Source: Candidatus Pacearchaeota archaeon
GTDB lineage: Archaea > Nanobdellota > Nanobdellia > Pacearchaeales > GW2011-AR1
DNA length: 64,000 nucleotides
Direction of reading: 5' to 3'
Assembly (NCBI GenBank): GCA_019659125.1
Contig: JAIFVX010000001.1
Location: forward strand, 340,135-404,134
Of this stretch, positions 18,001 through 64,000 are shown one piece after another. The notes under the pieces are model-generated. The model did not search any database, was not told where the DNA came from, and worked only from the letters and a program-made list of their open reading frames with translations. Made by a program: the position numbers and the translations under genes. The first letter of the stretch is position 1. Each line of letters opens with the position of its first letter.

Positions 18001-18559
18001 TCAAAGTACCTTCAATAATTGCAGCTATAATCAGCAGAGGCAGAACTACAACAAGGAATACATTCATAGACTCGTAGAATCTTCTCTTTAGCTCTTTCCC
18101 TTTGTGCTTAGCGAACACAAACATTCCTAACTTCAATCCAAGGGCAAGAGAAATAAAAATAGCAGGTAGCTCGAATATACCGTGAGGCAAAAGCCTCCAG
18201 AATTGACTAGGCCCTGCAATTTCATATACTTTCCCCATGACATAACCTATGACTACTCCATTTACCATGGTGCTCATGATGGAGAATATTCCCAAACCTA
18301 TTCCAAAAATCAATCCCATGAATGCAGTCAGAGCATTATTCTGAAGGATGTAAAAAATAAGTTCCAGGCCCTTAAGATTCTCTGTGCGAAGGACCAAATC
18401 CCTAATCATCTCATTAATTCTTTCAGAAAAAAGATCGGGATATAAGAATCCAATAGATACGCTGAAAGCAAAAAGCACGACAGTAGTGATAAGGTAAGGG
18501 CTGCTTTCTTTCAAATATCTCATAGCCTCATTCCATTGTGGTCGTAATTTAAGTTTCAT
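17987..18559 (-). CDS. SpoIIM (DUF95) family membrane protein
   Basis: ILxNN, NGxVIG, LLPHGIFELPA, AAIIEG motifs. Confidence 0.85.
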   Translation of the reverse strand: MKLKLRPQWNEAMRYLKESSPYLITTVVLFAFSVSIGFLYPDLFSERINEMIRDLVLRTENLKGLELIFYILQNNALTAFMGLIFGIGLGIFSIMSTMVNGVVIGYVMGKVYEIAGPSQFWRLLPHGIFELPAIFISLALGLKLGMFVFAKHKGKELKRRFYESMNVFLVVVLPLLIIAAIIEGTLITLF

Positions 18560-19281
18560 CGGAACATCTGCTGGAGCAGTTTAACCTTCTTCTTATATTT
18601 AGTCTTTAAATAGAGTCCATACACAATACCTGCTAGGAATCCTCCGAGATGGGCAGCATTTCCTATAGGAAGGTTGGATGCGATTGTTGCAATCCACGTG
18701 AGCACTAAGACGAGAGGAACCATAATGTATGCAGGCAATGAAAAGAAAGGGAGGAAGATGATTGAAAATCTCAACCGAGGAAGGAGCATGACAAACAATC
18801 CCGCTATCGCGAAGATAGCCCCTGAAGCTCCAAGCATGTAGGTATCGGGAGTCCCAAAGAGTCGCATCCCCCATGCACCATTCCCATAAAGGCCTGAAAG
18901 AAAAACTGAAAGCAATCCAGCAAAGATACCTGAAATGATATAGAACCACAAGAACCTTCTTCGGCCAATAATCCTTTCACATAACCCTCCTAATGAAAAT
19001 AAGACGAACATATTGATGAAAAGGTGCACGAAATTTCCATGGGCGAATATATGGAGCACCAATGTCCACAAATACTTTCCAGCAAGGATACTGCTTGGCT
19101 TCAACGCAAAATAGTCAAGAACCCAGCAGGTCGTAGCATCTGGGCTGCATGAGAAGGCCAAAAGAGTGAGCTCCACCATCGAGAGGATAACGGTGATAAT
19201 GATAAGCCATCCTACAGTTGAGAGAAATGATAATCTCTCCCATAAACTTCTCCGCCTTAAAACTGGACTTCTCTGTATCAT
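18556..19281 (-). CDS. Rhomboid intramembrane serine protease
   Basis: HGNFVHLFINM, catalytic GASG and AHLGG motifs. Confidence 0.9.
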   Translation of the reverse strand: MIQRSPVLRRRSLWERLSFLSTVGWLIIITVILSMVELTLLAFSCSPDATTCWVLDYFALKPSSILAGKYLWTLVLHIFAHGNFVHLFINMFVLFSLGGLCERIIGRRRFLWFYIISGIFAGLLSVFLSGLYGNGAWGMRLFGTPDTYMLGASGAIFAIAGLFVMLLPRLRFSIIFLPFFSLPAYIMVPLVLVLTWIATIASNLPIGNAAHLGGFLAGIVYGLYLKTKYKKKVKLLQQMFR

Positions 19282-50046: not shown

Positions 50047-50220
50047 ATGGAAAAGCCAAAAATCAGCTTCTACGATGTCAAGACAAAAAAGAAGTTCGAG
50101 ACAAACACGTACAGAATCGTAGAAAAGAAAGGCCGATTCTTCGCAGTCACTAAATCTCCAGCAGGATCTCATGAATGCTGGCGAGTTGTTTCTAAGGACG
50201 AAGCTCAAAAGCTTAAGTAA
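50047..50220 (+). CDS. CC1-like small basic chromatin/DNA-binding protein (start revised from 49990)
   Basis: KISFYDVKTKKKFETNTYRIVEKKGRFFAVTKSP...WRVV resembles recalled crenarchaeal CC1 (KLKFYDIKAKQAFETDQYEVIEK..MFAVAKSPYTG.KVYRLL). Confidence 0.75.
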   Translation: MEKPKISFYDVKTKKKFETNTYRIVEKKGRFFAVTKSPAGSHECWRVVSKDEAQKLK

Positions 50221-50285: not shown

Positions 50286-50381
50286 TACATACATAGTAAG
50301 TATTAATGTACATACATAATAAGTAATAATTTATCTAAAAAAACATACATAATAAGTAAGATGATACATACATAATAAGGT
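50286..50381 (+). repeat. Four 17-bp direct repeats, consensus TACATACATAATAAGTA, abutting the TATA box of the giant gene
   Basis: Copies start at 50286, 50309, 50342 and 50365 (spacings 23/33/23), each with at most 2 differences; TTTATAAG at 50381-50388. Confidence 0.85.
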
Positions 50382-50411
50382 TTATAAGATGCATTTTCCA
50401 CCTATACGGGA

Positions 50412-53400
50412 ATGAAAAGGGGTGGCATAGGGAATAGTAGGATACATGAGTGTGAGGAACGTATAAAAATTCTTCAGCACCAACGAAAAAAATTCGTTGG
50501 AATTCTTCAAACACTAACACAGCAATATCTCAATCGTGAAATTTCAAGGGCTGAGTACGATCAGAAAACCAGCGAAAGACATGAAGGGAAAACATGTGCT
50601 GAATGGATTCATTACTATGACACTGCCATTCATGACTGCCATGAAACGATAGCAAAAGCGCGTGATGTAAGCAGAAGGAATAAGATCATTGCGTTCACGC
50701 TGCTAGGATTCATTATGGCCGTAACATTTTTCTATGCTTTTCATGGGCCTACTCTGACAGGATTCGCCGTGAATGAGGAGTCTGCCTATATCGATATCAT
50801 CAACCAATCACTCTCTTCTTCAACAACTTATTTCTGGCATCCAGAGCATCAGGGAACTCTGAGTTCATTAAGGATTTCAGGATCGGTCAAGGGAGAGGGC
50901 ACAGTAAAAATCTATCTCAATGACAAGCTTGTTTACGCCTCAGAGAAAAAAAGATCACTCATTACAGGCTCAGCTATTGAATCTCCTGAAGATATTCCAA
51001 ACGAGGCGGAGGCTCCTCAACAAACCACCCCTTTGAACGAAGAGCCTCCCCTCGAGGGAAACCAAACTGAGGAATCACTGAACGAAACGGCTGAAAACGT
51101 CTCGGTCAATGAAACCACTACAACACATGATGAGAATGTAACGGATGAATTCTCATACACTTTTACAAACGAATGCCAAGAGACCTGCAACCTCAAGGAT
51201 GAAAACTTGACCGACAACACCTATAATCTTAAAATCGAGCTTGAAGGTGCCGTGCTAACGCTAGACTCTATTTCTTATACGCTTATTTCCCCAAAAGTAA
51301 AGACGGGGGAAAACGCATCTTTTGATGAATTCACCCAAGGCCCTGCAGAGGTTGGAAAGCCAGTCACATGGACTAAGGATGTTCACGGAAAGAAGAACGT
51401 TACACTTCCAAAAGAAGCAAGAAACATTAAAGTAAGCAAGAATAATCAAGATATTATATGCGAGGAGAGTGAAAGCGAAGAAAGCAAAGATATAGCTTGT
51501 GGAGAAGAAGACTATGAGATAAGTTACGACACTCCTGCCCCTACACTGACAGAAGAATCCATGTCATCAACCCATAAGCGAATCACGATTCAAGGTCCTG
51601 ACTCAGTCCATTACAAAGATGTAACTGCTTCAGCAAAGATTGAGGAAACAGTAGATGCAAGCTCAATACAACTTCTCTGGAATGTTAATGATGTTCAGCA
51701 AGCTCATCCATTCACGGCCCTTGATACAAACAATGACTCCTTGTTTGACACCATCCAATGGACAGTTCCCCACTTGAGCACGCAAATATTTGATATCATT
51801 ATAGTCACGCATGCAGTGCACCTTGACAAAAACAGAAAATTCATCTCAGACATATACGATCAGATAAAGGCAGCCGATGGAATATGGAGTGATCCTATAG
51901 GGAATGAAGAGTATGTACGAATAACCTTTGCCAGGAGCCTCGATGCTACAAACGATATCAGCATCTATCCACGGATTGTCTCGGGAGATCCAATCATTGA
52001 AGTCAGTGAACGGGACGAAAATACAGTCATTGCTACATTCGCAAACATTCAGAACAATACCTATAACAAGGTTCTTCTGGAAACCCTGCAAGGGACTCAA
52101 GATACTTTTGACCTCAAGATCATAAATGGAACGGTCCAATTCGACCATATTATCGATCCACCTACAGGAATTGTAACTCTCTTCTTTAACAATACAATGA
52201 CCTCGGGTTCCTTTCCTGCGCGAGCCAAGAAACTGGGAACAGGGTCTCCCAATGCAGTCAACATAAGCTGGCCTGGAGAGTTCGATGCCAACCAAGTTCC
52301 GGTCGATGCTTCTGGTATAGGTCAATGGTTCCCAATTATAGGAACGATAGGAAATACAACTTCCACCAACGCAGTAAATAATGCAAGCCTTTCAAGCAGG
52401 TTGAATTACAGCGTTGGCCCTGGATGGTTGTGGGATGATAATCTTACAGGCTATCAAATTTCTCAAGGTGGCTTCCAGTTCAATGTTTCACTGATGGGAG
52501 GACAAGCTGCTGCAATCGCCGCAGGTGAGAGAATCTTTGTGCGAATCAGTATCGTCAATGTCACCAGCAATGCATTCCATGTTGTCCGAGACTTGCTTGC
52601 CACCAACTGCACAGGAGGAACATGCTCAGGCGGACAGAATGGATGGGCTCCCAATGAGGGCCCAAGAATAAACCATCCTGCATTAAATCAAATCTATACA
52701 AACATTACTTTTAATGTAACTTCAAATCAAAGCTATACATTCCATGAAGGTCAATGGCTCTATATCGAGCTAGGGTTTGGAGATGCAACAAGTACCACTG
52801 ACAGAACTATCGGATTACGATATAACATCGCAAACACCTTCGTAAAGACCCCTCGAATCTATGAAGCTACCGCTCCCATAGTAACCCTTCAGACACCAGC
52901 GGATGCTGCAACAGTGGATGCTGCAACCGTCGGGTTTAACGCCACATTCACTGATAATTCAAGGCTTGCAAATGTAACCTTATTTATCTGGAACTCAACC
53001 TCCCTGGTTAACCAAACAACGCGTTCGCTAGCAGGAACCACAAACAATACGAATATCTCAGTTACGCTTCCTCGAGTCGATACCTATTTCTGGAACTACC
53101 TTGCAAGCGACAATGAAAGCAACTCCGCATTTGCAAGCAACTTCACACTGGTGTATCAAGCTGCCGGAGATACGACTCCTCCTTTAGTGACCATAGGCTC
53201 TCCAGATAACAGGACATACATTAGACTGCAAGGCATCCCATTTGACTATAACGTCTCTCTTAATGAAAACGGTTCGGTCTCCTACAGCCTTGATGGAGGA
53301 ATCCATAATGTCTCAATGCTTGGTAATGAAGGAATATTTGGGACAACATTCAACGACACCAATGAATCGCTTGCAGAAGGTACTTATATATTCACAGTCT

Positions 53401-56400
53401 ATGCAAATGATACGGCTGGAAACCAGAATCACACGACACAAGTCTTTTTCAGTCGTGCCGATGTGAATATACTTTTGAATAGCACTGTTACTGACGCTGA
53501 TGGAGAACTTATCAATACGACGGTGCAAATCATCAAAAGCGATGGAACTACCATTTACAACCAAACCAACATTACGCATGATGATATCATTCCTGTGAAT
53601 GATACCTATGACATCATCATACAGCCTCATGGCATCGATGCGATTGAGCAAGTAGTGTTCGCAGATCTCAATTTGTCAGACTATGCCGGAACACAGGTGA
53701 ATGTCATCTCTATTGATGAAAGCAACGACAGCAGTGAAACTGCAGGTTTCGATTCCATCTTCGCCCTTGATCCTCAAATAGAGAACTTCACCGAGGCCAC
53801 AGTTACTATCAATGCTACGGCAAACACTATTTACAAGTGCGTCGACTGGGACTATGAGAACAGGACATGTCTGGGGGCCTGGGATCTGTTCCTTTCTGAT
53901 CTTGTGCCAGGAGAATTATATAACTTCACGCTGACACCTGGAGACCCTGGTTACGGAGTCATCAACATCATTAATGCCCAGCACCTGAACGCGAGCAGAG
54001 ACTTTATCTCAGACATCTACACCGAAGTGAAAGATCTCGATGATGTCTGGAGCGAAGACATCCAAGACACTCATTATGTCAGAATCACCTTTGAAAGAAA
54101 TCTAAGTAGCAGGAATGATATCAGCATCTATCCCAGAGTCATTTCAGGGACCCCTCGAATTGAAGTGTATGAATTCAATAGCACGCAAGTGCTGGGAGAA
54201 TTCACGACGCTTGATGAAAACACCTACAATAAGTTTATCTTATCATCATTGCCTGGGACTCAAGATACTTTTGACCTCAAGATCATCAATGGAACGGTCC
54301 AATTCGACCATATCACTGACCCTTCAACAACCTTCCTGGTCCCCAATACAGGAACGGCGCCTGGAACCAACGGGACCCTGTCAGAAACAACATTCACAAT
54401 CTCGCAGCAATCACTAACAACGGATAATTCTACAACAAAACTTAATAGGTCGGATAACTACTGTCTGCTTGGTGGAGTAGGAACCGCGACTCTTGACTCT
54501 TTCGTCTTAGTAAACTTTACCCTCCCCTCTAACATGGCTTCTGTAGGTCAGGTCTTTATCACAACGGAAAGTAACACATCAGCAGCAAACGACGTCAAGG
54601 ATCTTGGCCTGTTCAACTGGACATCGTCGGCATGGGTGGTAGTTAACTCATCCAAGGGAGCAGCCAACATAGAGAATGTCACTACCTTCAACATCACGAA
54701 AACATTGGCATTGAACTTCGTCTCTTCAACAGGCATGGTGCGAGTCATGGTAAAGGGCAATGGAGGATCAGCTGATAGTGTTTGTGTAGATTTTATCAGT
54801 GCCAATGTCACCTATGAGGCATTTCCCGTTGCCAACCTATACACTCCCGCAAACGGCACCACAACAGGAGTAGCAGACATGGGATTCAATGCAACATTCA
54901 CTGATGACACTGGTGTTAACAATGCGACGTTGTGGATTTGGAATACCACTTCATTGGTCAACACGACAATGAGGGTCCTTAGAGGAACTACCAATAACAC
55001 TAACATTTCAGTCACACTTCCTCGAGGAGGAACCTACTTCTGGAACTATCAGGTAAATGACACGGTAGGCAACTCAAGCTTTAACAGGACAAACTTCACG
55101 CTTACGTATGATAATTTCCCGCCTATTGTCACCATGGACAAGCCTGCAAACATAACGTTCAATTCATTCCCAATCCTTTTCAATATTACTACAGATGAGA
55201 ATGCAACGTGCAACTACACGCTCGATAATGGGGCGAACAACAAGACATTGTTCAACCAGACACAAAGAGCATTCAATGCGACAAACGCAAGCATGGCGGA
55301 TGGTAACTATATAGTCACCTACTATTGCTGGGACATTTTCAATAACTTTAATGGCACGGCCTCAAGAGGATTTGGTGTCGATACCGTAAATCCTGGTCTT
55401 GTGATTAATTCCCCCGCCAACAATAGCAATCTCACAACGTCATACTGGGCAATCTTGAACTGGTCGGTGCAGGACAAGAGCAACAGCACTGAAGTCTGGG
55501 TCTATGGTACAAATGACTCAAACGCATCATATATCTATGACTATCTTATCTACCATACAAAAAATAATGGGAATGGAAGCATCATGTTCAACTGGAGTGC
55601 CCCTGCAATACGAGCAACAGATAACACGACTGTTCTTCTATTGCATTTTGATAACCTTTCAGAGCAGGGAGAGAACGCTTCGGTAGTAAATGACTTCTCA
55701 CCGATACAAAACAATGCGACAGTGCAGAATATGCTTTTCAATGAAACGGGAAGGATTGCAGGAGCGCTGACATTCAATGGGGTCGCTTCAGCAGTCAATG
55801 TGAGCGTCAACAACTCCGTTGACTTCATCATGCCCTCCTATACAATCATGGCTTGGATTTACATAATAGGCAACGGAACCAACGCAAGCACGGGAGGTGG
55901 AGGAGCCACGATATATCCTATCATTTCAAAGGGAATTAATGAAAGTTCAGAGAGCACGACGACTGATATCCAATTCTATCTAGGAATAAATTCCTCTTCG
56001 GGGACGCTTCAAGGCGGATTCGAAAACCACACAAATGCGGGAGCTGGGGGAGGCCAAAACTCTCCTATCGTTGGTGTAACCGTATTGGAAACATATACCT
56101 GGTATCAGGTTGCGCTCGTGGTTGAAGAAAAGAAATATGAATCCCTGTATATAAATGGAATTCTTGAGGCAAACACAAGCATTCTAGGCCTGACGCCAAA
56201 CGGGACAAGAAACACAGCAAAGATAGGGATTGGTCAGGCATATAATACATCGGGAGCAGTCGTTGGCGCCTTCAACGGGACGATTGATGAGCTAGTTATT
56301 TTCAACAAATCATTGCAGGGAATTGATATCGCAAATCTCTATAATCTCTCAAATGGATTGAAATACTGGGCAGTAAATACTTCAGACAGTGCAACCAATA

Positions 56401-58901
56401 AAAACGCCTCTGCACGATACATCTTTAATCTAGCAACTCTCGATACGACCGCCCCACAAGTCACCATTATCGAACCGACGAGTAAAATATATGGTAGTAA
56501 CTCCCTGCAGTTCAATGTCTCGCTGACCGAGCCAGGTACTGTTCTCTATAGCCTCGATGGAGGAGCTAAAAACTATTCCATGACAGGCAATAATTCAAAT
56601 ACAGGATTTAATGCAACGAACGCAAGTATAGCCGACGGCATCTACACATTTAGTGCATATGCAAACGACACGGCTGGTAATAATAACTACACGGTTAGCG
56701 TGACGTTCCAGGTTGATGCAAAGAAACCTGATGTTAATTTCACTAACCCAACACCAAACAATGCAAGTTCTCAATCAGGTAATTCCATATTTGTGAATGT
56801 TTCCTCAAGCGACTCAACTCTCCATTACACCTTGCTGGACTTTGATCATTCCTTGAAGCTCTGGCTCAGGATGGACGACATCAACAGCACGAATGGAGTT
56901 ATTGACTCATCAAGCTACAGCACCAACGCAAGCAATTCGAGCAGGGCATTCCAGAATGCATCAGGAAAGTTCAACGCATCCTTCACCTTTGACGGCAATA
57001 GCAGCATCATTTCCCTTCCTTCCTATCCCTTGCTTCGTAATGAGGGCGAAGGCTTTACTGCATCCTTGTGGCTGAACAGGCAGCCTTCTGCCTCTGGAAC
57101 GGTGTATGTCTATGAAATGGGAGCATTGGCGTTTGCAATGACCTATGAAGGAAGCAGCATCGTATGTAATCTACGTAATAGTACGGGAAATGTTTATCAA
57201 ACGAATGCAGCCTTTACTCCTGCAGTCAGCACATGGTATAACGTTATCTGTTCATATAGTAGGAATGATAACGTGCTAAGACTATATGTAAATGGAGTAG
57301 TAAATACTACACTACCTATTGCCGCCTTTGACCAGTTCAACGGCCCTCCAAGCGATGGCATGGGCATTGGCTGCAGGTCTCTTTCCTTTTGTTCTGCGGG
57401 CAACGCATGGAACGGATCCCTTGATGAAGTTATTGTCTTCAATAGAAGCTTGAACAATACAGAAATTGGAGCATTATACGATGCAACGGCTACTCAATAT
57501 ACTAATAACTTCACATCACTATCGGCAGGCGACCATACATTTACAGCATATGCTGTCGACATGCTGGGGAATAAGAATCAGACAGAACAAACGACTGTAA
57601 CGATTACAAATCCGACAAATACTGCCCCTTCGATCACCTCTGTCCAAGCCCTAGCAGCACAAGACCCTACGGAAGATTCCATAACAAATGTAATCTTTAA
57701 CTTCACAGCCTATGATCCCGATGGATTTGGAGATCTTAAAGACGCCAGCGCTCGTGTCAATGTCACAATAATAGGCCAGTCAAACCTAAGGCAAAACCTT
57801 TCATGTGCTGAATTGAATAATTTCGCAACGAATTATGCAAATTACACCTGTAGTGTGCAGATGCAATATTTTGATTCAAGCGGCTCATGGAATCTTTCGG
57901 TTTCCATCAACGATACTGCTGACGCAGTTGCTATCAATGAGTCAACGTATTTCACCTATAATCAATTGTCTGCATTTACAGTAGGACCTTCTAACTTAAC
58001 GTTCGCATCTCTAACTCCTGGATCAACCAATCAGACATCAAACAATGATCCTCTAGTATTGAACAATACGGGAAACAAGAACGTTACGCTTGGTAATATT
58101 CAGGTAAATGCAACAAACTTAAAGGGAGAGACTGATAATACGAAGGCTTTGTATGCAAACAACTTCACACTTTCAATAGTCACAGGCTCATCCTTTGAGT
58201 GCGGCATCAGCGGCAATCAGAGCGTTGCGATGAGCCACTGGGCGTTCATCAATGTCACGAACTCTTCTCTGACAAACGGTAATCACTCGCTTGCTGATGG
58301 TTCAACCGGACAAGAGCAGATCTACATGTGTCTTACAGTGGTAGGAAATGAGCTTTCTGGTCAGGCCTACTCGACTGCAGGTGAAGGGGCATGGACACTC
58401 AAGATCCTAATTGTGGCATTGGGCATAAGAAGAAGGAAGAAGGAAATAGAAGCCATTGAAGAGTTGAAGAGGAAGTATTCCTTGACTGACGAAGACCTCC
58501 GAGAGATACTTGAGAACAGATCGTCAGATAAAGTGCCGGTAACTCTCTTCATAACTGAGCTTGGAGGCCTTGAATCGCTCTGCAAGTACTTGAAGGAAAA
58601 CAGAAATATGAGCTATCATGAGATCGCCATGCAGCTTGAAAGAAACGATAGGACTATATGGACCTCCTATAAGAAAGCATCAAGCAAGTATACTGAATCG
58701 ATAAGGGAAGATAAGGAAGCACTGCAGATCCCACTGTCAGTATTTAAGAACAAAGAGCTTACGGTATTTGAATCGATTATCATCTACCTTAAGAAGCAGG
58801 AGCTTACCTTCAGCGAGATTGCCCAGCTGTTGCAAAGAGACCAAAGAAATGTCTGGACAATTCATTCGAGGGCAGTAAGGAAAATAAAAAGAAACGTTTA
58901 A
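50412..58901 (+). CDS. Giant (2829 aa) LamG/Ig-repeat surface glycoprotein with N-terminal TM and C-terminal tandem HTH domains
   Basis: TM near aa 92-110; duplicated modules; two LamG-like domains; very dense NxS/T sequons; ILIVALGI-RRRKK; then SYHEIAMQLERNDRTIWTSY and TFSEIAQLLQRDQRNVWTIH. Confidence 0.85.
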   Translation: MKRGGIGNSRIHECEERIKILQHQRKKFVGILQTLTQQYLNREISRAEYDQKTSERHEGKTCAEWIHYYDTAIHDCHETIAKARDVSRRNKIIAFTLLGFIMAVTFFYAFHGPTLTGFAVNEESAYIDIINQSLSSSTTYFWHPEHQGTLSSLRISGSVKGEGTVKIYLNDKLVYASEKKRSLITGSAIESPEDIPNEAEAPQQTTPLNEEPPLEGNQTEESLNETAENVSVNETTTTHDENVTDEFSYTFTNECQETCNLKDENLTDNTYNLKIELEGAVLTLDSISYTLISPKVKTGENASFDEFTQGPAEVGKPVTWTKDVHGKKNVTLPKEARNIKVSKNNQDIICEESESEESKDIACGEEDYEISYDTPAPTLTEESMSSTHKRITIQGPDSVHYKDVTASAKIEETVDASSIQLLWNVNDVQQAHPFTALDTNNDSLFDTIQWTVPHLSTQIFDIIIVTHAVHLDKNRKFISDIYDQIKAADGIWSDPIGNEEYVRITFARSLDATNDISIYPRIVSGDPIIEVSERDENTVIATFANIQNNTYNKVLLETLQGTQDTFDLKIINGTVQFDHIIDPPTGIVTLFFNNTMTSGSFPARAKKLGTGSPNAVNISWPGEFDANQVPVDASGIGQWFPIIGTIGNTTSTNAVNNASLSSRLNYSVGPGWLWDDNLTGYQISQGGFQFNVSLMGGQAAAIAAGERIFVRISIVNVTSNAFHVVRDLLATNCTGGTCSGGQNGWAPNEGPRINHPALNQIYTNITFNVTSNQSYTFHEGQWLYIELGFGDATSTTDRTIGLRYNIANTFVKTPRIYEATAPIVTLQTPADAATVDAATVGFNATFTDNSRLANVTLFIWNSTSLVNQTTRSLAGTTNNTNISVTLPRVDTYFWNYLASDNESNSAFASNFTLVYQAAGDTTPPLVTIGSPDNRTYIRLQGIPFDYNVSLNENGSVSYSLDGGIHNVSMLGNEGIFGTTFNDTNESLAEGTYIFTVYANDTAGNQNHTTQVFFSRADVNILLNSTVTDADGELINTTVQIIKSDGTTIYNQTNITHDDIIPVNDTYDIIIQPHGIDAIEQVVFADLNLSDYAGTQVNVISIDESNDSSETAGFDSIFALDPQIENFTEATVTINATANTIYKCVDWDYENRTCLGAWDLFLSDLVPGELYNFTLTPGDPGYGVINIINAQHLNASRDFISDIYTEVKDLDDVWSEDIQDTHYVRITFERNLSSRNDISIYPRVISGTPRIEVYEFNSTQVLGEFTTLDENTYNKFILSSLPGTQDTFDLKIINGTVQFDHITDPSTTFLVPNTGTAPGTNGTLSETTFTISQQSLTTDNSTTKLNRSDNYCLLGGVGTATLDSFVLVNFTLPSNMASVGQVFITTESNTSAANDVKDLGLFNWTSSAWVVVNSSKGAANIENVTTFNITKTLALNFVSSTGMVRVMVKGNGGSADSVCVDFISANVTYEAFPVANLYTPANGTTTGVADMGFNATFTDDTGVNNATLWIWNTTSLVNTTMRVLRGTTNNTNISVTLPRGGTYFWNYQVNDTVGNSSFNRTNFTLTYDNFPPIVTMDKPANITFNSFPILFNITTDENATCNYTLDNGANNKTLFNQTQRAFNATNASMADGNYIVTYYCWDIFNNFNGTASRGFGVDTVNPGLVINSPANNSNLTTSYWAILNWSVQDKSNSTEVWVYGTNDSNASYIYDYLIYHTKNNGNGSIMFNWSAPAIRATDNTTVLLLHFDNLSEQGENASVVNDFSPIQNNATVQNMLFNETGRIAGALTFNGVASAVNVSVNNSVDFIMPSYTIMAWIYIIGNGTNASTGGGGATIYPIISKGINESSESTTTDIQFYLGINSSSGTLQGGFENHTNAGAGGGQNSPIVGVTVLETYTWYQVALVVEEKKYESLYINGILEANTSILGLTPNGTRNTAKIGIGQAYNTSGAVVGAFNGTIDELVIFNKSLQGIDIANLYNLSNGLKYWAVNTSDSATNKNASARYIFNLATLDTTAPQVTIIEPTSKIYGSNSLQFNVSLTEPGTVLYSLDGGAKNYSMTGNNSNTGFNATNASIADGIYTFSAYANDTAGNNNYTVSVTFQVDAKKPDVNFTNPTPNNASSQSGNSIFVNVSSSDSTLHYTLLDFDHSLKLWLRMDDINSTNGVIDSSSYSTNASNSSRAFQNASGKFNASFTFDGNSSIISLPSYPLLRNEGEGFTASLWLNRQPSASGTVYVYEMGALAFAMTYEGSSIVCNLRNSTGNVYQTNAAFTPAVSTWYNVICSYSRNDNVLRLYVNGVVNTTLPIAAFDQFNGPPSDGMGIGCRSLSFCSAGNAWNGSLDEVIVFNRSLNNTEIGALYDATATQYTNNFTSLSAGDHTFTAYAVDMLGNKNQTEQTTVTITNPTNTAPSITSVQALAAQDPTEDSITNVIFNFTAYDPDGFGDLKDASARVNVTIIGQSNLRQNLSCAELNNFATNYANYTCSVQMQYFDSSGSWNLSVSINDTADAVAINESTYFTYNQLSAFTVGPSNLTFASLTPGSTNQTSNNDPLVLNNTGNKNVTLGNIQVNATNLKGETDNTKALYANNFTLSIVTGSSFECGISGNQSVAMSHWAFINVTNSSLTNGNHSLADGSTGQEQIYMCLTVVGNELSGQAYSTAGEGAWTLKILIVALGIRRRKKEIEAIEELKRKYSLTDEDLREILENRSSDKVPVTLFITELGGLESLCKYLKENRNMSYHEIAMQLERNDRTIWTSYKKASSKYTESIREDKEALQIPLSVFKNKELTVFESIIIYLKKQELTFSEIAQLLQRDQRNVWTIHSRAVRKIKRNV
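52092..54313 (+). repeat. 59-bp near-identical direct repeat (52092-52150 and 54255-54313) inside the giant gene
   Basis: 58/59 identical; encodes GTQDTFDLKIINGTVQFDHI at the end of a duplicated ~120-aa domain. Confidence 0.85.
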
Positions 58902-59782
58902 AAAGAAAAGAAAGTAAGTATACGAAACATAATGATACATAAAAAGAGGGTGCTGCTGTGGCTATTGCCAATAGGAATATTGTTTCTTGTTTCCCTTATT
59001 TCGCCCAGTTCAGCAAAGTTTTCAGATTGGTATACCTCTATAACAGGCAGGGCGACATCTCAAGGAGTGGCTGTTAATATCACGGTAGGAAACACTGCCC
59101 CTAGAGTTACTTTTGTAAGCGCTGTTGCCTCACTTACCCCTGTAGAAGACTCTGTTGCATTTGTCCTATTCAACTTCACAGCAAATGATACGGATGGATT
59201 CGGAAACCTTAAAGATACCAGCGCACGAGTTAATATTTCGTTGACTGGAGTGCCAACGGTGCGGAGCAATTTCTCATGTACAAAATTGAATACTTTTGCC
59301 CTCACGAATGCTAACTATACCTGTAGTGTGCAGATGCAATATTTCGATAATAGCGGAGTATACAATATTTCAGTCGCAATCAATGACACAAGTGATGCCA
59401 TGGGAATAAATCAATCCACATTCTTTACATTTAATCAATTGTCTGCATTTATCGCAGGACCTTCTAACTTAACGTTTGCCTCACTATCTCCAGGTGACGT
59501 AAATAAGACATCAAACAATGACCCTCTCATATTGAACAATACGGGAAACAAGAACGTTACGCTTGGTAATATCCATGTTAACGCCACCGATCTAAAGGGA
59601 GAGACTGATAATACCAAGGCACTATATTCAGGTAACTTTACTGTCTCAATTGTTACCGGATCAAGTTTGGAGTGCGGCATCAGCGGCAATCAGAGCGTTG
59701 CGATGAGCCACTGGGCGTTCATCAATGTCACGAACTCTTCTCTGACAAACGGTAATCACTCGCTTGCTGATGGTTCAACCGG
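58197..59782 (+). repeat. 113-bp perfect direct repeat (58197-58309 and 59670-59782) plus a 43-bp perfect patch (58057-58099 and 59530-59572)
   Basis: Read directly; shared between the last extracellular domain of the giant gene and the next gene. Confidence 0.88.
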
Positions 59783-59885
59783 GCAAGAGCAATTATATCT
59801 CTGTCTCGGTTATGTAGGAACTGAGATTTCATCACAAGCATATTCAACCGCAAATGAGGGAACATGGACAACACGAATCGTATAA
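58932..59885 (+). CDS. Secreted stand-alone paralogue of the giant protein's last extracellular domain
   Basis: Signal peptide, then NTAP...YST..EG.WT..I, collinear with about 57618-58403. Confidence 0.85.
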   Translation: MIHKKRVLLWLLPIGILFLVSLISPSSAKFSDWYTSITGRATSQGVAVNITVGNTAPRVTFVSAVASLTPVEDSVAFVLFNFTANDTDGFGNLKDTSARVNISLTGVPTVRSNFSCTKLNTFALTNANYTCSVQMQYFDNSGVYNISVAINDTSDAMGINQSTFFTFNQLSAFIAGPSNLTFASLSPGDVNKTSNNDPLILNNTGNKNVTLGNIHVNATDLKGETDNTKALYSGNFTVSIVTGSSLECGISGNQSVAMSHWAFINVTNSSLTNGNHSLADGSTGQEQLYLCLGYVGTEISSQAYSTANEGTWTTRIV

Positions 59886-60442
59886 AAATAGCATTCCAAG
59901 TAACGATGGGCATAGCACTGACTCTAGCAATAGCTTCAGCAGCAGGGGTGTCAACAGAATATTGGAACGGGCCCCAAGAGCATCCTCTTGAACTTTCTGC
60001 AGGCGAGACAAAAGATATTGTATTTACACTTCAAAATATGGTGGGGGCTGACGATGTCTCCTTCCAGGCAGCAATCATTGCTGGAAACTCATTTGCACAA
60101 ATAACTGACAAAGATCTTATCTATGCAGTTCCGATTGGAACAAAAGATAAGGAGGTGCATGTCCGGATCAGCCTTCCCGCCAATGCCACCTTGGGAGAGA
60201 CTCATGATATAGGTGCCGCATTCACCACGATTACTCCACAGCAAAGTGGGTTCAAGCTAGGAAGCGCCTTTGAAGAGCACTTTAATCTCGTTACAGTCGA
60301 GAAAAAGCAGCTTCCAGCAAACACATCACAAACTACACAACAGGGTCTGTCAAGCAATACACTCTACTTCGTTATAGGAGCTCTTGTTCTTGCAGTGGTT
60401 GTGATAGCAATAATAGCGAGAAAAAGGGCAAACAAAGTTTAA
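59864..60442 (+). CDS. Secreted Ig-like protein with C-terminal TM anchor
   Basis: Signal peptide, beta-sandwich pattern, TM plus basic tail. Confidence 0.7.
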   Translation: MDNTNRIKIAFQVTMGIALTLAIASAAGVSTEYWNGPQEHPLELSAGETKDIVFTLQNMVGADDVSFQAAIIAGNSFAQITDKDLIYAVPIGTKDKEVHVRISLPANATLGETHDIGAAFTTITPQQSGFKLGSAFEEHFNLVTVEKKQLPANTSQTTQQGLSSNTLYFVIGALVLAVVVIAIIARKRANKV

Positions 60443-60467
60443 ATAGTTTCAACCACTGCATTGAAAA

Positions 60468-62132
60468 ATGAAGGGGACATATATTCTTGCAGGATTTTTT
60501 GCACTGATCCTATGTATTCCTGCAGCGTTCTCTGATGCTCCAATCACGGGAGATGCAACAAGCCAACAGACAGGAATCTCAATACTGGTGATTGCGACCG
60601 TGCCTTCGCTGACAATCATAAGCCCTAGAAATGAGACTTATCTTACCAATACATCTATCCTTCTCAACTTCTCGGTCAGCGGCCAGCTATTGCTCTGGTA
60701 CAATCTTGACAATGGTAATAACATAACTATAACCCAGCCTTTGTATTTCAATACGTCTCAAGGCTCGCATATCCTTTATCTATTCGCCAACAACTCAGAA
60801 GGCTTAACGAGGAAAAATATCACCTTCTCCGTAAATATAACGAGATTCCGCGTGATTTATGAGGAGTATAGAGGATCATTTAAGGGGAACTCGACTAACT
60901 TTAATCTTTCGACCTATGAGCAGCTGCAAAACCTGACCAACATCGTCCTTGAAGAGACACGGTATGGAAGGATATCATTCTTCCAGAATATTAACGTGAC
61001 CAATAGCCAGAATCCTGCATCCTTGACGACAGACTTGGATACCAACACAAATATATCTACAAATAGGATAGAGATAAATGGCACCGCTCTTCCTAATTTT
61101 AACACCTCGATGACACTTTCTCTCTATAACATCTCCTTCACCACTCCAAGAATCCTGAAAAATGGCGACGTGTGCTCATCATCGGTATGTATCCAGCAAG
61201 GTTATGCATCGGGGACGTTTGTATTTAACGTGACAGAAGCAGCACTTTATTCAGCGGAAGAGACGCCTGCTCAGCAGGGATCAACGCCGAACACGGGGAG
61301 CTCAACGAGCGGAGGGTCAAGTTCGACTACGGGAGGAATCACTAAAAACCTTGAGATAGATCCAGAACAGCTTAGTATTTCCTTGAAGCAAGGCGAAATA
61401 AAAACCCGGAGTATGAAGATCACCAACACGGGAAACACTCCATCCCATATCATTGTAAAGGCGCAAAAGCTTGGAAATCTTGTCAGGATTGACGAAGAAA
61501 GCCTTGATCTTCAGCCGGGGCAGGCGCGTACAGTTTCAATAGACTTTATAGCAAAGGAAGATCAGCTTCCAGGCCCCTATCTAGGAAAGATAGTTGTATT
61601 TGATGGGGCTGCCGACCACGAAGTACTTATCATTATCGACGTACAGTCAAAGAACCCCCTCTTTGATATTAAGACTGAAATCCTCAAGAGTTCGCTCTAT
61701 GTGCAGCCCGGAGATGATGTTGTCGGACAGATTACGCTCTACAGTCTAGGAAGCCAGGGTACTGTAGACGTGCTTGTTGATTATACTATCCTCGATAACA
61801 ACGGGAATGAGATCTTGGTCGATCATGAGACACTTGCAGTACAAACCCAAACAAGCTTCGTTAAGAAATTTACGCTTCCTGCAGGAATATCTAAAGGCAC
61901 GTATATCCTCAATGTGAAGGCAACCTACTCAGGAGAGACTGCAAGCTCAAGTGCGTGGTTCTTTGTGGGAATAAAGCCTTGGACTCTGCAAGATACGCTA
62001 CTGTATGCAATCCTCCTACTTTTACTACTGGGTACGATCATTATCATATACGATCGTAGAAACCGAACAAATAAAACCAAAAAGTTCGGAGAAATTGAAT
62101 TAGTACAAGCAGGAATGGTTAGAGATCATTAA
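60468..62132 (+). CDS. Surface protein with Ig-like domains, Gly/Ser linker and C-terminal TM
   Basis: Signal peptide; sequon-rich N-half; GSSTSGGSSSTTGG linker; NTGN Ig module; TM. Confidence 0.75.
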   Translation: MKGTYILAGFFALILCIPAAFSDAPITGDATSQQTGISILVIATVPSLTIISPRNETYLTNTSILLNFSVSGQLLLWYNLDNGNNITITQPLYFNTSQGSHILYLFANNSEGLTRKNITFSVNITRFRVIYEEYRGSFKGNSTNFNLSTYEQLQNLTNIVLEETRYGRISFFQNINVTNSQNPASLTTDLDTNTNISTNRIEINGTALPNFNTSMTLSLYNISFTTPRILKNGDVCSSSVCIQQGYASGTFVFNVTEAALYSAEETPAQQGSTPNTGSSTSGGSSSTTGGITKNLEIDPEQLSISLKQGEIKTRSMKITNTGNTPSHIIVKAQKLGNLVRIDEESLDLQPGQARTVSIDFIAKEDQLPGPYLGKIVVFDGAADHEVLIIIDVQSKNPLFDIKTEILKSSLYVQPGDDVVGQITLYSLGSQGTVDVLVDYTILDNNGNEILVDHETLAVQTQTSFVKKFTLPAGISKGTYILNVKATYSGETASSSAWFFVGIKPWTLQDTLLYAILLLLLLGTIIIIYDRRNRTNKTKKFGEIELVQAGMVRDH

Positions 62133-63179: not shown

Positions 63180-64000
63180 TCATTTGACCTGGATCTTTAT
63201 GTATCCCCGTGTCGGATGAGTATGCTGTATCCTCTTGTGATGCGAATAGATGAATCGTGCGACAATAAGTGCAAATAACAAAGAGATAAGGGTAACTCCG
63301 ACAATCCCTAATGTTTTTCGATTGCCTTCAGACAGTGCAAATCCGGTAATCCTTGCCGAAGGAAGGAATATAGGCTGGCGGATGGTGCTTCCACTCTCTC
63401 CATCGCTTAAAGAAATGACGAGGGTAAATTCACCAAACACTTCCTTAGGAAGTTCAAGAAGGAAATTCCTATTATCTGACTGTCCTGAAGAAAGAGATAT
63501 ATCTTCCTGTGCATTTACAACAACAAGACCATCACTATCAAGGACTGTGTAATTAGCGGTAACAGCGTGGTTTCTATGACTAAATTCATTCAAAAGATAA
63601 TTAAGAGATAACGCTGTGCCCTGTCTCTCATAGGCAATATCTGAAGCTTCAAAGCTGTTCCTAAAAACATGAAGGGTCCATGGAATCGTTTGCACAAATT
63701 CATCACAGGTAATGCTTACCTGCATAGTATAGTCGCCAGGTTGCGCCGTCTCCGAAGGCTGAAGAGAAAGTACAAAGTCAAACTTCTCGCCCGTAGTAAG
63801 ACCCTTTTGCTGACCACTAGTAATCGAAGAGTTCAACTCACCGCTGACGGAGGGAGTGCAACGATTCAGGAATCGTGTTCCAGTATTGACTGCATGCAAT
63901 AAGATGCTCTTACTTGTTCCTGGCTGAACATACCCTTCTTCGATACCTAATGAAAGCTGTCTGATAGTGCTAACGGCGACACTTCCCGCACTTCCTCCGC
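63180..64000 (-). CDS. 3' part of a surface protein (Gly/Ser linker, Ig-like domains, C-terminal TM); 5' end beyond the window
   Basis: Frame of the 239-aa ORF stays open to the window edge (GGSAGSVAVSTIRQLSLG...). Confidence 0.75.
   Translation of the reverse strand, partial: GGSAGSVAVSTIRQLSLGIEEGYVQPGTSKSILLHAVNTGTRFLNRCTPSVSGELNSSITSGQQKGLTTGEKFDFVLSLQPSETAQPGDYTMQVSITCDEFVQTIPWTLHVFRNSFEASDIAYERQGTALSLNYLLNEFSHRNHAVTANYTVLDSDGLVVVNAQEDISLSSGQSDNRNFLLELPKEVFGEFTLVISLSDGESGSTIRQPIFLPSARITGFALSEGNRKTLGIVGVTLISLLFALIVARFIYSHHKRIQHTHPTRGYIKIQVK

What the first reader, a model, noticed from the sequence alone, without database searches (positions are those of the whole stretch)
50286..58901. 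Giant surface protein with C-terminal tandem HTH and a phased repeat array at its own promoter: candidate self-regulating surface sensor
Seen: a 2829-aa LamG/Ig glycoprotein ends in a short hydrophobic run (ILIVALGI, 58404-58427), a stop-transfer-like RRRKK and two tandem HTH units (about 58570-58890). Four 17-bp direct repeats sit directly upstream of its TATA box. Established: direct-repeat operators are typically bound by tandem or head-to-tail HTH proteins, and membrane-tethered regulators (ToxR/CadC logic) couple outside signals to transcription. Inference: the protein, or a released tail, binds these repeats and couples host contact or cell-envelope state to its own expression. A rhomboid protease in this window could release the tail. 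Caveat: the hydrophobic run has only 8 residues, so a cytoplasmic location for the HTHs is not assured.
Basis: partly seen in the sequence, partly recalled or inferred. Interest (0 to 1): 0.75.

Follow-up and report, generated by a model that had tools for sequence, protein, structure and literature searches.

The report
Giant surface protein carrying own regulator
A 2829-residue cell-surface glycoprotein of a tiny DPANN archaeon ends in a pair of DNA-binding modules, and their conserved 17-base target sits four times in the protein's own promoter, so the protein most likely controls its own production; hundreds of related genomes share this design, and I found no description of it in the literature.

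Summary
ORF 50412-58901 is uninterrupted (2829 aa). It has a cytoplasmic N-domain, a strong TM, a ~2550-aa LamG/Ig ectodomain with 153 N-glycosylation sequons, a short hydrophobic run, RRRKK, and two sigma-70-region-4/LuxR-type HTH units. Four copies of T-ACATACATAATAAGTA lie upstream of the TATA box and occur nowhere else in the 809-kb genome.

- **Fusion is real.** About 60 Woese-/Pace-/Nanoarchaeota loci carry the same in-frame giant+HTH gene.
- **The tail is a complete regulator.** Related genomes encode it as a stand-alone 160-200-aa protein.
- **The repeat is a conserved operator.** It sits at promoters of fused and stand-alone HTH genes. In stand-alone loci, 21 of 22 hits fall in 1.2% of the sequence. 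The usual positions are -68 and -16 around a TATA box 31 nt before a leaderless ATG.
- **No other binder.** The fused tail is the only family member in this genome and in 11 of 12 others checked (the twelfth adds only a 93-aa fragment).

Autoregulation is therefore well supported, though not shown biochemically.

Not supported: a sensor role, rhomboid release, and strict helical phasing. WTLKI is the last beta-strand of the ectodomain, so only ~7 hydrophobic residues remain.

I rate it a new variant of transmembrane transcription regulators, of high interest.

The parts
50286..50302 (+). Operator copy 1 (T-ACATACATAGTAAGTA), starts 125 nt before the ATG
   Evidence: 25.2 bits on the family weight matrix
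50309..50325 (+). Operator copy 2 (T-ACATACATAATAAGTA), at -102
   Evidence: 26.3 bits, the maximum score
50342..50358 (+). Operator copy 3 (A-ACATACATAATAAGTA), at -69; matches the family's distal operator position (-67/-68)
50365..50381 (+). Operator copy 4 (T-ACATACATAATAAGGT), at -46; degenerate 3' end. It occupies the BRE position and overlaps the TATA box by 1 nt
   Evidence: 15.0 bits
50381..50388 (+). TATA box TTTATAAG, starting 31 nt before the ATG (implies a leaderless mRNA)
   Evidence: The TATA-to-ATG distance is 30-31 nt in 19 of 22 homologous promoters. The 31-nt geometry implying leaderless initiation is inferred from general archaeal promoter knowledge
50412..58901 (+). Giant surface-protein gene, 2829 aa, stop codon included
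50412..50684 (+). Conserved N-terminal cytoplasmic domain (residues 1-91; 34% charged, no sequons)
   Evidence: Conserved in 30 loci; composition; no Pfam or NCBIfam family
50685..50741 (+). Signal-anchor TM helix IIAFTLLGFIMAVTFFYAF (residues 92-110), preceded by RRNK
   Evidence: Highest 19-residue hydropathy in the protein, 2.29
50742..57617 (+). Variable ectodomain (LamG x2, Ig-like domains), rich in N-X-S/T
   Evidence: Ectodomain length differs greatly between homologues, 1200 to more than 3500 aa
57618..58409 (+). Conserved C-terminal pair of Ig-like domains (residues 2403-2666), ending in the strand W-T-L-K-I; paralogous to the next gene
   Evidence: 74% identity over 264 aa without gaps to the 317-aa neighbour, which ends exactly here. 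Same in 14 other loci. AF2 gives pLDDT about 90 and a strand at 2662-2665. Ig-like fold matches
58404..58427 (+). Short hydrophobic run ILIVALGI; only about 7 residues lie beyond the folded domain
   Evidence: pLDDT <50, no helix. In the family the distance from W to the basic cluster has median 14 aa, range 12-18 in 55 of 57
58428..58442 (+). Polybasic cluster RRRKK (family: 5-13 K/R within 15 aa)
58443..58529 (+). Helical linker (EIEAIEELKRKYSLTDEDLREIL...), homologous to the N-terminal part of the stand-alone regulators
58530..58688 (+). HTH unit 1 (VPVTLF...LESLCKYLKENRNMSYHEIAMQLERNDRTIWTSYKKA)
58725..58895 (+). HTH unit 2 (IPLSVF...FESIIIYLKKQELTFSEIAQLLQRDQRNVWTIHSRAVRKI); Sigma70_r4_2
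58932..59885 (+). Operon gene 2: secreted 317-aa paralogue of the giant's last two Ig-like domains, with no anchor
   Evidence: found in 68 of 80 loci
59864..60442 (+). Operon gene 3: 192-aa surface protein with a canonical 19-20-aa C-terminal anchor plus RKRANK
   Evidence: found in 49 loci
60468..62132 (+). Operon gene 4: 554-aa Ig-like surface protein with a canonical C-terminal anchor
   Evidence: found in 61 loci

Best explanation
The ORF is a genuine member of a large, apparently undescribed family of Nanoarchaeota (Woese-/Pacearchaeota) giant surface glycoproteins. Its last 157 residues are a complete tandem sigma-70-region-4/LuxR-type HTH transcription regulator. The 17-bp repeats are that regulator's operator. 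Each operator holds two AMRTA half-sites (ACATA and AAGTA) 11 bp apart, so one tail with its two HTH units probably reads one operator. The tail therefore feeds back on the promoter of its own leaderless operon (giant gene plus three further surface-protein genes), so that output of the finished protein sets further transcription. Shown here: the fusion, the fold, and the family-wide pairing of HTH with motif. Inferred: actual DNA binding, a cytoplasmic location for the tail, and the sign of regulation. In most relatives one operator lies between TATA and the start codon, which is a repressor position. In this genus that site is missing, and four sites lie upstream with the last at the BRE position. 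The sign here (repression by blocking TFB/TBP, or activation) is therefore open. Whether the tail acts while tethered or after release is also unresolved.
For: (1) The fusion is real. The same in-frame junction (GQEQ.Y.C...Q.YS[ST]..G.W.I.[IV] + short hydrophobic run + K/R cluster + two HTH) is found in about 60 loci from different MAGs. About half of the top 150 of 2041 representative clusters are proteins of 600-5919 aa with the HTH at or within about 300 residues of the C-terminus, at the very end in most.
(2) The tail equals a stand-alone regulator. 110 proteins of 106-270 aa, most of them 140-250, align over the linker and both HTH units. Fused tails form one clade and solo proteins another, with 96/87 support.
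(3) The fold is confident: pLDDT >90. Best matches are sigma region 4, RcsB and the archaeal Tfx-like regulator 8HNO.
(4) The motif tracks the HTH. A matrix built from giant-gene promoters finds 102 hits of 14 bits or more in 1.16 Mb of loci, almost all just upstream of HTH genes on the coding strand. In the independent set of stand-alone loci, 21 of 22 hits of 16 bits or more fall in promoter windows covering 1.2% of the sequence (binomial p 8e-40; 10 of 18 genes). All paired motif hits in relatives' genomes sit in front of giant genes.
(5) The geometry is conserved: operators at -67/-68 and -15/-16, with TATA 30-31 nt before the ATG.
(6) The loop is closed. In this genome the four sites are the only ones and the tail is the only family member. 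In 11 of 12 other fused-type genomes every hit lies inside a giant ORF, and the twelfth adds only a 93-aa fragment.
(7) A cytoplasmic tail is favoured. Sequons run at 5.3 per 100 aa in ectodomains against 0.54 in tails, charged residues at 15% against 38% (n=48), and a K/R cluster is always present.
Against: There is no biochemical evidence of binding. The recognition helices are nearly invariant, which fits a conserved motif but would also fit a non-DNA partner. The hydrophobic segment is too short for a normal TM helix. WTLKI is a strand of the ectodomain, and AF2 gives no helix for LIVALGI. Neighbouring proteins in the same operon use anchors of 19-20 aa. Published work puts the lower limit for inserted helices at about 10-12 Leu, or 13 or more mixed Leu/Ala residues (PMC4796907). 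This window lacks the TATA-proximal operator that most relatives have. The genome is 85.6% complete, so a solo paralogue could be missing. The hits are clustered and so not fully independent.
Confidence: 0.7

Rival explanations
1. Release model. The tail is cut off by an intramembrane or juxtamembrane protease (rhomboid, S2P or SPP-like), or is clipped at the translocon, and acts as a soluble regulator. The trigger could be a signal at the ectodomain, or simply each export event.
For: The hydrophobic run is conserved, unusually short and rich in helix breakers (G or P just before the K/R cluster), which suits a transient rather than stable anchor. The genome encodes three rhomboids, one M50 S2P and one SPP-like protease. 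Soluble stand-alone homologues work with the same operator.
Against: No protease gene is linked to the operon here or in the 80 loci (one search shows only surface-protein neighbours). No conserved cleavage motif was identified, and there are no proteomic data. Tethered regulators such as ToxR and CadC work without release (PMC10269533).
Confidence: 0.2
2. The tail is extracellular, or lies on the same side as the ectodomain, because the hydrophobic run does not span the membrane. It would have another role, such as binding extracellular DNA or a host surface, and the promoter motif would be read by some other factor.
For: Only about 7 hydrophobic residues separate the folded Ig-like domain from RRRKK. 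AF2 predicts coil there, and real anchors in the same operon are 19-20 aa.
Against: The motif follows the HTH domain even in stand-alone genes that have no signal peptide. No other family member exists in this genome or in 11 of 12 other fused-type genomes. Tails are ten-fold depleted in sequons and have cytoplasm-like composition. A cluster of 5-13 K/R after a hydrophobic run is the classical stop-transfer arrangement.
Confidence: 0.07
3. The repeats are not an operator of this protein. They could be iterons of a replication origin or mobile element, duplicated core-promoter elements, or chance AT-rich repeats.
For: The motif is AT-rich and resembles TATA-like sequence: in relatives a half-copy embeds the TATA box. 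An earlier first-reader note called the array iteron-like.
Against: The motif is unique in the genome. It occurs at fixed positions and in fixed orientation relative to the ATG in dozens of genomes, and only in front of genes encoding this HTH. No replication or mobile-element genes are adjacent.
Confidence: 0.02
4. The fusion is an assembly or sequencing artefact, and surface protein and regulator are really separate genes.
For: The 74%-identical paralogue just downstream is the kind of repeat that confuses assemblers.
Against: The same in-frame junction occurs in about 60 independent assemblies, including a single-cell genome (SCGC AAA011-D5, L029). There is no TATA-like element or ATG ahead of the tail. 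Fused tails form their own clade.
Confidence: 0.01

Closest known systems
Transmembrane transcription regulators (TTRs: ToxR, CadC, TcpP; archaeal ArnR/ArnR1), census in Demey et al. 2023 (PMC10269533)
   Same: A DNA-binding domain and membrane anchoring sit in one polypeptide. The regulator is expected to act on a promoter from the membrane. An extracytoplasmic domain is attached.
   Different: The DNA-binding module is C-terminal and follows a ~2550-aa adhesin-like ectodomain, whereas classical TTRs have an N-terminal wHTH before the TM. It is a tandem sigma-r4/LuxR-type HTH. The protein is anchored at both ends. The segment next to the HTH has only 7-12 hydrophobic residues. The only detectable target is its own promoter. 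The census text does not mention DPANN or Nanoarchaeota.
Sigma-70 region 4 / LuxR-GerE / Tfx-type HTH domains (Pfam PF08281; RcsB 5W43; archaeal regulator 8HNO)
   Same: Same helix-turn-helix fold, with weak sequence similarity.
   Different: Two units in tandem, each preceded by a conserved IPxSIF strand. There is no sigma region 2, so it is not a sigma factor. No curated family reaches its cut-off apart from a borderline PF08281 hit.
Stand-alone tandem-HTH proteins of Woesearchaeota (annotated only as 'sigma factor-like helix-turn-helix DNA-binding protein' or hypothetical)
   Same: Homologous over the linker and both HTH units (33-56% identity), with the same operator motif at their own promoters.
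   Different: They are soluble proteins of 160-200 aa, form a separate clade, and have no surface part.
Membrane-tethered transcription factors released by regulated proteolysis (Notch, SREBP, ATF6; bacterial anti-sigma/RIP cascades) - compared from general knowledge
   Same: As in Notch, a large extracellular part, one membrane passage and a C-terminal intracellular transcription module, which makes outside-in signalling by cleavage conceivable.
   Different: There is no evidence of cleavage or of a ligand. The module binds DNA directly. The organism has no nucleus, so release is not required.
Archaeal repressors that bind between TATA and the start site (e.g. MDR1, LrpA, Phr, TrmB) - compared from general knowledge
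   Same: Most family members have an operator filling the 16 nt between TATA and the leaderless ATG, plus a second one about 52 bp upstream.
   Different: This window and its same-genus relative lack the proximal operator and instead have four upstream copies.

Membership tests
Transmembrane transcription regulators (TTR) | A recognised DNA-binding domain in the polypeptide | tested here: met
   Sigma70_r4_2 at 26.2 bits against a 25.7 cut-off on the tail; two HTH units at pLDDT >90
Transmembrane transcription regulators (TTR) | At least one transmembrane region in the same polypeptide | tested here: met
   Residues 92-110 have hydropathy 2.29 over 19 aa and are preceded by RRNK. The second, HTH-proximal segment is doubtful
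Transmembrane transcription regulators (TTR) | DNA-binding domain on the cytoplasmic side | tested here: inconclusive
   For: a K/R cluster, ten-fold sequon depletion, and the tail being the only family member beside conserved operators. Against: only about 7 hydrophobic residues beyond the folded domain, and no predicted helix
Transmembrane transcription regulators (TTR) | Binds target DNA and regulates transcription while membrane-bound | not testable with these tools
   Needs EMSA, ChIP and fractionation
Sigma-70 family sigma factors | Region 2 (core binding and -10 recognition) together with region 4 | tested here: not met
   Only region-4-type matches were found. There is no Sigma70_r2 hit, and every sigma NCBIfam model scores far below its cut-off
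Nanoarchaeota giant-protein / tandem-HTH family (undescribed) | Conserved N-terminal cytoplasmic domain + TM + variable ectodomain + conserved C-terminal Ig pair + W.I.[IV] + short hydrophobic run + K/R cluster + two HTH | tested here: met
Nanoarchaeota giant-protein / tandem-HTH family (undescribed) | Operator T-ACATA-M-ATAA-TAAGTA in its own promoter, with TATA 30-31 nt before the ATG | tested here: met
   Four copies and TATA at -31. The arrangement is atypical because there is no copy at -16
RIP-released membrane-tethered transcription factors | Proteolytic release of the transcription module by a dedicated protease | not testable with these tools
   Candidate proteases exist but are unlinked to the gene
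Archaeosortase/PGF-CTERM-type sorting signals | Tripartite signal (motif, about 20-aa TM, basic residues) at the extreme C-terminus | tested here: not met
   157 residues follow the basic cluster, there is no PGF-like motif, and the hydrophobic run is 7-12 aa

The most novel reading that the evidence does not exclude
The protein is a one-polypeptide device that links the surface to the genome, a prokaryotic counterpart of Notch logic. The conserved, too-short hydrophobic run plus K/R cluster would be a deliberately unstable stop-transfer. The tandem-HTH tail would then be clipped or released, either at each completed export or when the ectodomain is engaged or pulled by a host cell. The amount of free regulator would report surface-protein export or host contact to the promoter of the surface operon.
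Probability: 0.15. Interest if true: 0.9.

Novelty: new variant of a known kind. Interest (0 to 1): 0.7.

Why it matters
DPANN archaea live attached to host cells, and their giant surface proteins are thought to mediate that contact. How the production of these proteins is controlled is unknown, and DPANN have few known regulators.

Here a whole family ties the largest surface protein physically to a DNA-binding module with an identifiable, conserved operator. The family numbers 2041 sequence clusters at 50% identity, and about half of the best-matching ones are giants.

This gives a directly testable regulator-operator pair in organisms that cannot yet be manipulated genetically. It also extends membrane-tethered transcription control to a new architecture (C-terminal tandem HTH behind a giant ectodomain). 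Finally, it raises a membrane-biology question: how can a chain pass the membrane with 7-12 hydrophobic residues, or is the tail released?

Tried and rejected
- **Read-level check of the junction.** Conservation of the junction in about 60 assemblies stands in for it.
- **Literature.** Seven searches and three papers read gave no description of this architecture. The library is incomplete, so absence is not proof.
- **PDB by sequence.** Nothing significant. Only a weak match to the Tfx-like regulator 8HNO.
- **Whole-tail fold search.** No match below E 0.001, because the two units are flexibly linked. The local matches are all sigma-r4/LuxR types.
- **NCBIfam.** No family reaches its cut-off for the tail, the N-domain or the operon partners.
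- **Rhomboid link.** Rejected as specific evidence. There are three rhomboids genome-wide, and the one in the window is 31 kb away.
- **Sortase-like sorting signal.** Rejected, because 157 aa follow the basic cluster.
- **Independent expression of the tail.** Rejected. There is no AT-rich promoter-like element and no ATG between residues 2637 and 2733.
- **Iteron or origin reading.** Rejected, because the motif tracks HTH genes.
- **Covariation between recognition helices and motif variants.** Looked at by eye only, with no clear signal, and not pursued.
- **G001 (same genus).** It cannot show whether the orthologue keeps the tail, because the ORF of 3610 aa or more runs off the contig.

Full report
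**Observation.** The window comes from an 808,890-bp, 5-contig genome that is 85.6% complete. Related loci place it in the Woese-/Pace-/Nanoarchaeota part of DPANN.

ORF 50412..58901 (+) is open for 2829 codons. Pfam finds two Laminin_G_3 stretches plus Big_13, Y_Y_Y and Big_3_4. The protein has 155 N-X-S/T sequons, and 153 of them lie in residues 111-2659.

The first 91 residues are highly charged and sequon-free. The only strong TM helix follows at residues 92-110. Near the C-terminus come ILIVALGI (58404-58427), RRRKK, a helical linker and two HTH units.

Scanned alone, the tail passes the Sigma70_r4_2 gathering score (26.2 vs 25.7 bits). AlphaFold2 models both units at pLDDT >90.

Upstream, ACATACATA[A/G]TAAGTA occurs at 50287, 50310 and 50343, with a degenerate copy at 50366. 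TTTATAAG follows at 50381-50388, 31 nt before the ATG. No other site of 15 bits or more exists in the genome.

**The fusion is real and widespread.**
- A full-library search with the last 175 residues gave 2041 representative clusters at E<0.001. About half of the top 150 are proteins of 600-5919 aa with the match at or within about 300 residues of the C-terminus, at the very end in most.
- A scan of species-representative genomes returned 80 loci. About 60 contain a giant ORF (1200 to more than 3500 aa) ending in the same tail. About 18 encode a stand-alone protein of 160-220 aa.
- The junction is conserved residue by residue: GQEQ.Y.C...Q.YS[ST]..G.W.I.[IV], then a short hydrophobic run, then 5-13 K/R.
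- The N-terminal cytoplasmic domain is conserved too. So are three downstream genes, of 317, 192 and 554 aa, found in 49-68 of the 80 loci.
- Stand-alone proteins align with the whole tail, linker included. In a tree, fused tails form one clade (49 plus 1 solo) and solo proteins another (16), with 96/87 support. This points to one ancient fusion.

**The repeats are a conserved operator tied to the HTH.** Upstream regions of complete giant homologues show the same motif. A weight matrix built from 29 of those sites (consensus ACATAAATAATAAGTA, usually preceded by T) gave the following.
- It found 102 hits of 14 bits or more in 1.16 Mb of loci. Nearly all lie just upstream of HTH-encoding genes on the coding strand.
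- Preferred positions are -67/-68 and -15/-16 from the ATG. TATA starts 30-31 nt before the ATG in 19 of 22 cases.
- The stand-alone loci were not used to build the matrix and so serve as an independent test. There, 21 of 22 hits of 16 bits or more fall in promoter windows that make up 1.2% of the sequence (p 8e-40; 10 of 18 genes). The hits are clustered, so the p-value overstates independence.
- In 41 relatives' genomes, every closely paired hit sits in front of a gene starting MGRTRLAKA..., the giant's N-terminus.
- The tail is the only family member in this genome, by BLAST and by a --max profile search of all six frames. In 11 of 12 further genomes with fused genes every hit lies inside a giant ORF, and the twelfth adds only a 93-aa fragment.

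The common denominator of all motif-bearing promoters is therefore the HTH domain itself.

The motif contains ACATA and AAGTA 11 bp apart, which is a direct repeat of AMRTA one helical turn apart. That spacing suits two head-to-tail HTH units of one tail. This last step is inference.

**What differs in this window.** Most relatives have three elements:
- a distal operator at -68;
- a half-copy that embeds the TATA box;
- an operator filling the 16 nt between TATA and the leaderless ATG, which is a classical archaeal repressor position.

Here copy 3 (-69) matches the distal site. Copy 4 (-46) is a full site at the BRE position. Copies 1 and 2 are extra. The TATA-to-ATG interval carries no operator. 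The same-genus genome G001 shares this layout and the same spacer sequence, but its spacings are 23/21/44 rather than 23/33/23. Helical phasing is therefore not a conserved feature, and the sign of regulation in this genus is open.

**Topology.** The 317-aa protein encoded just downstream has a signal peptide. It is 74% identical, without gaps, to residues 2403-2666 of the giant, and it ends at ...WTTRIV, aligned with WTLKIL. Paralogues in 14 other loci end at the same place.

AlphaFold2 with a 46-row alignment puts TLKI in a confident strand of the last Ig-like domain. It leaves LIVALGIRRRKKE as low-confidence coil (Ig-like fold matches). Only about 7 hydrophobic residues therefore separate a folded ectodomain from the basic cluster. 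If the strand is counted, the figure is 12-18 across 55 of the 57 relatives measured, with a median of 14.

Neighbouring proteins of the same operon have ordinary anchors of 19-20 aa, so a thin membrane is not the explanation. Published insertion studies put the lower limit near 10-12 Leu, or 13 or more mixed residues (PMC4796907).

Four things argue against an extracellular tail:
- the ten-fold sequon depletion and cytoplasm-like composition of tails;
- the invariable K/R cluster;
- the soluble stand-alone homologues;
- the closed HTH-operator loop.

I conclude the tail is cytoplasmic (about 0.85). How the chain crosses, and whether it stays attached, is unexplained.

**Mechanism.** The best-supported model is product feedback. 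The tail of the finished protein binds the operators of its own promoter and tunes transcription of the four-gene surface operon.

Access from the membrane is plausible. The cell is tiny, and co-translational insertion of the N-terminal anchor should hold the transcribed gene at the membrane. Both points are inference.

Release by proteolysis is possible. The genome has three rhomboids, one S2P and one SPP-like enzyme. None is linked to the operon. Nothing in the data speaks for or against ligand sensing.

**Comparison and novelty.** Functionally this is a transmembrane transcription regulator. Its architecture is unlike ToxR, CadC, TcpP or ArnR. The module is C-terminal, it is a tandem sigma-r4-type HTH, it follows a giant ectodomain, and its anchor is marginal.

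The 2023 TTR census does not mention DPANN. No curated family covers the tail, the N-domain or the partners. My literature searches found no description.

After I had reached these conclusions, the scan's own notes showed that four earlier agents reported the same family in other genomes with the same reading. These notes agree with mine but are not independent evidence.

Noticed in passing
window 50047-50220 (+): A 57-aa basic protein (MEKPKISFYDVKTKKKFETNTYRIVEKKGRFFAVTKSPAGSHECWRVVSKDEAQKLK) has its own TATA about 27 nt before the ATG. It has no Pfam or NCBIfam hit and is conserved in the same-genus genome (L090). It looks like a small chromatin or DNA-binding protein.
   Followed up: partly
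L012, L013, L014, L018, L022, L040 etc., 90-130 nt upstream of the giant ATG: A second conserved motif, TAGGCACTAC(A/T), usually appears as two copies flanking TTTAAAT. It lies between the giant promoter and a divergent class-II aminoacyl-tRNA-synthetase-like gene that starts M(A)FIVKKK. It is absent from the window.
   Followed up: no
L074:6650-6846; L056 upstream of 6800: Operator arrays can expand by tandem duplication. A 64-bp repeat gives six operator copies before a stand-alone HTH gene (L074), and a 29-bp repeat occurs three times in L056.
   Followed up: partly
window 58932-62132 (+) and 63180-63899 (-): A surface-protein gene set is conserved across Nanoarchaeota. It comprises the giant, a secreted 317-aa paralogue of its last two Ig-like domains, an anchored 192-aa protein, an anchored 554-aa Ig-like protein, and a convergent 239-aa anchored protein. 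None matches a curated family.
   Followed up: partly
L018, L023, L031, L070: Contigs carrying this archaeal gene family are filed under Bacillota or Patescibacteria/Paceibacterota MAGs in public records. They are probably mis-binned Nanoarchaeota contigs.
   Followed up: no
P0112 (5919 aa), L010, L034, L040: Some family members carry more than two HTH stretches, or 150-200 extra residues after the tail.
   Followed up: no
window 18556-19281 (-): A rhomboid protease gene (Pfam PF01694, 102.9 bits) lies here, one of three in the genome. An S2P (contig 4) and an SPP/presenilin-like gene (contig 1, with one in-frame TAA) are also present.
   Followed up: partly
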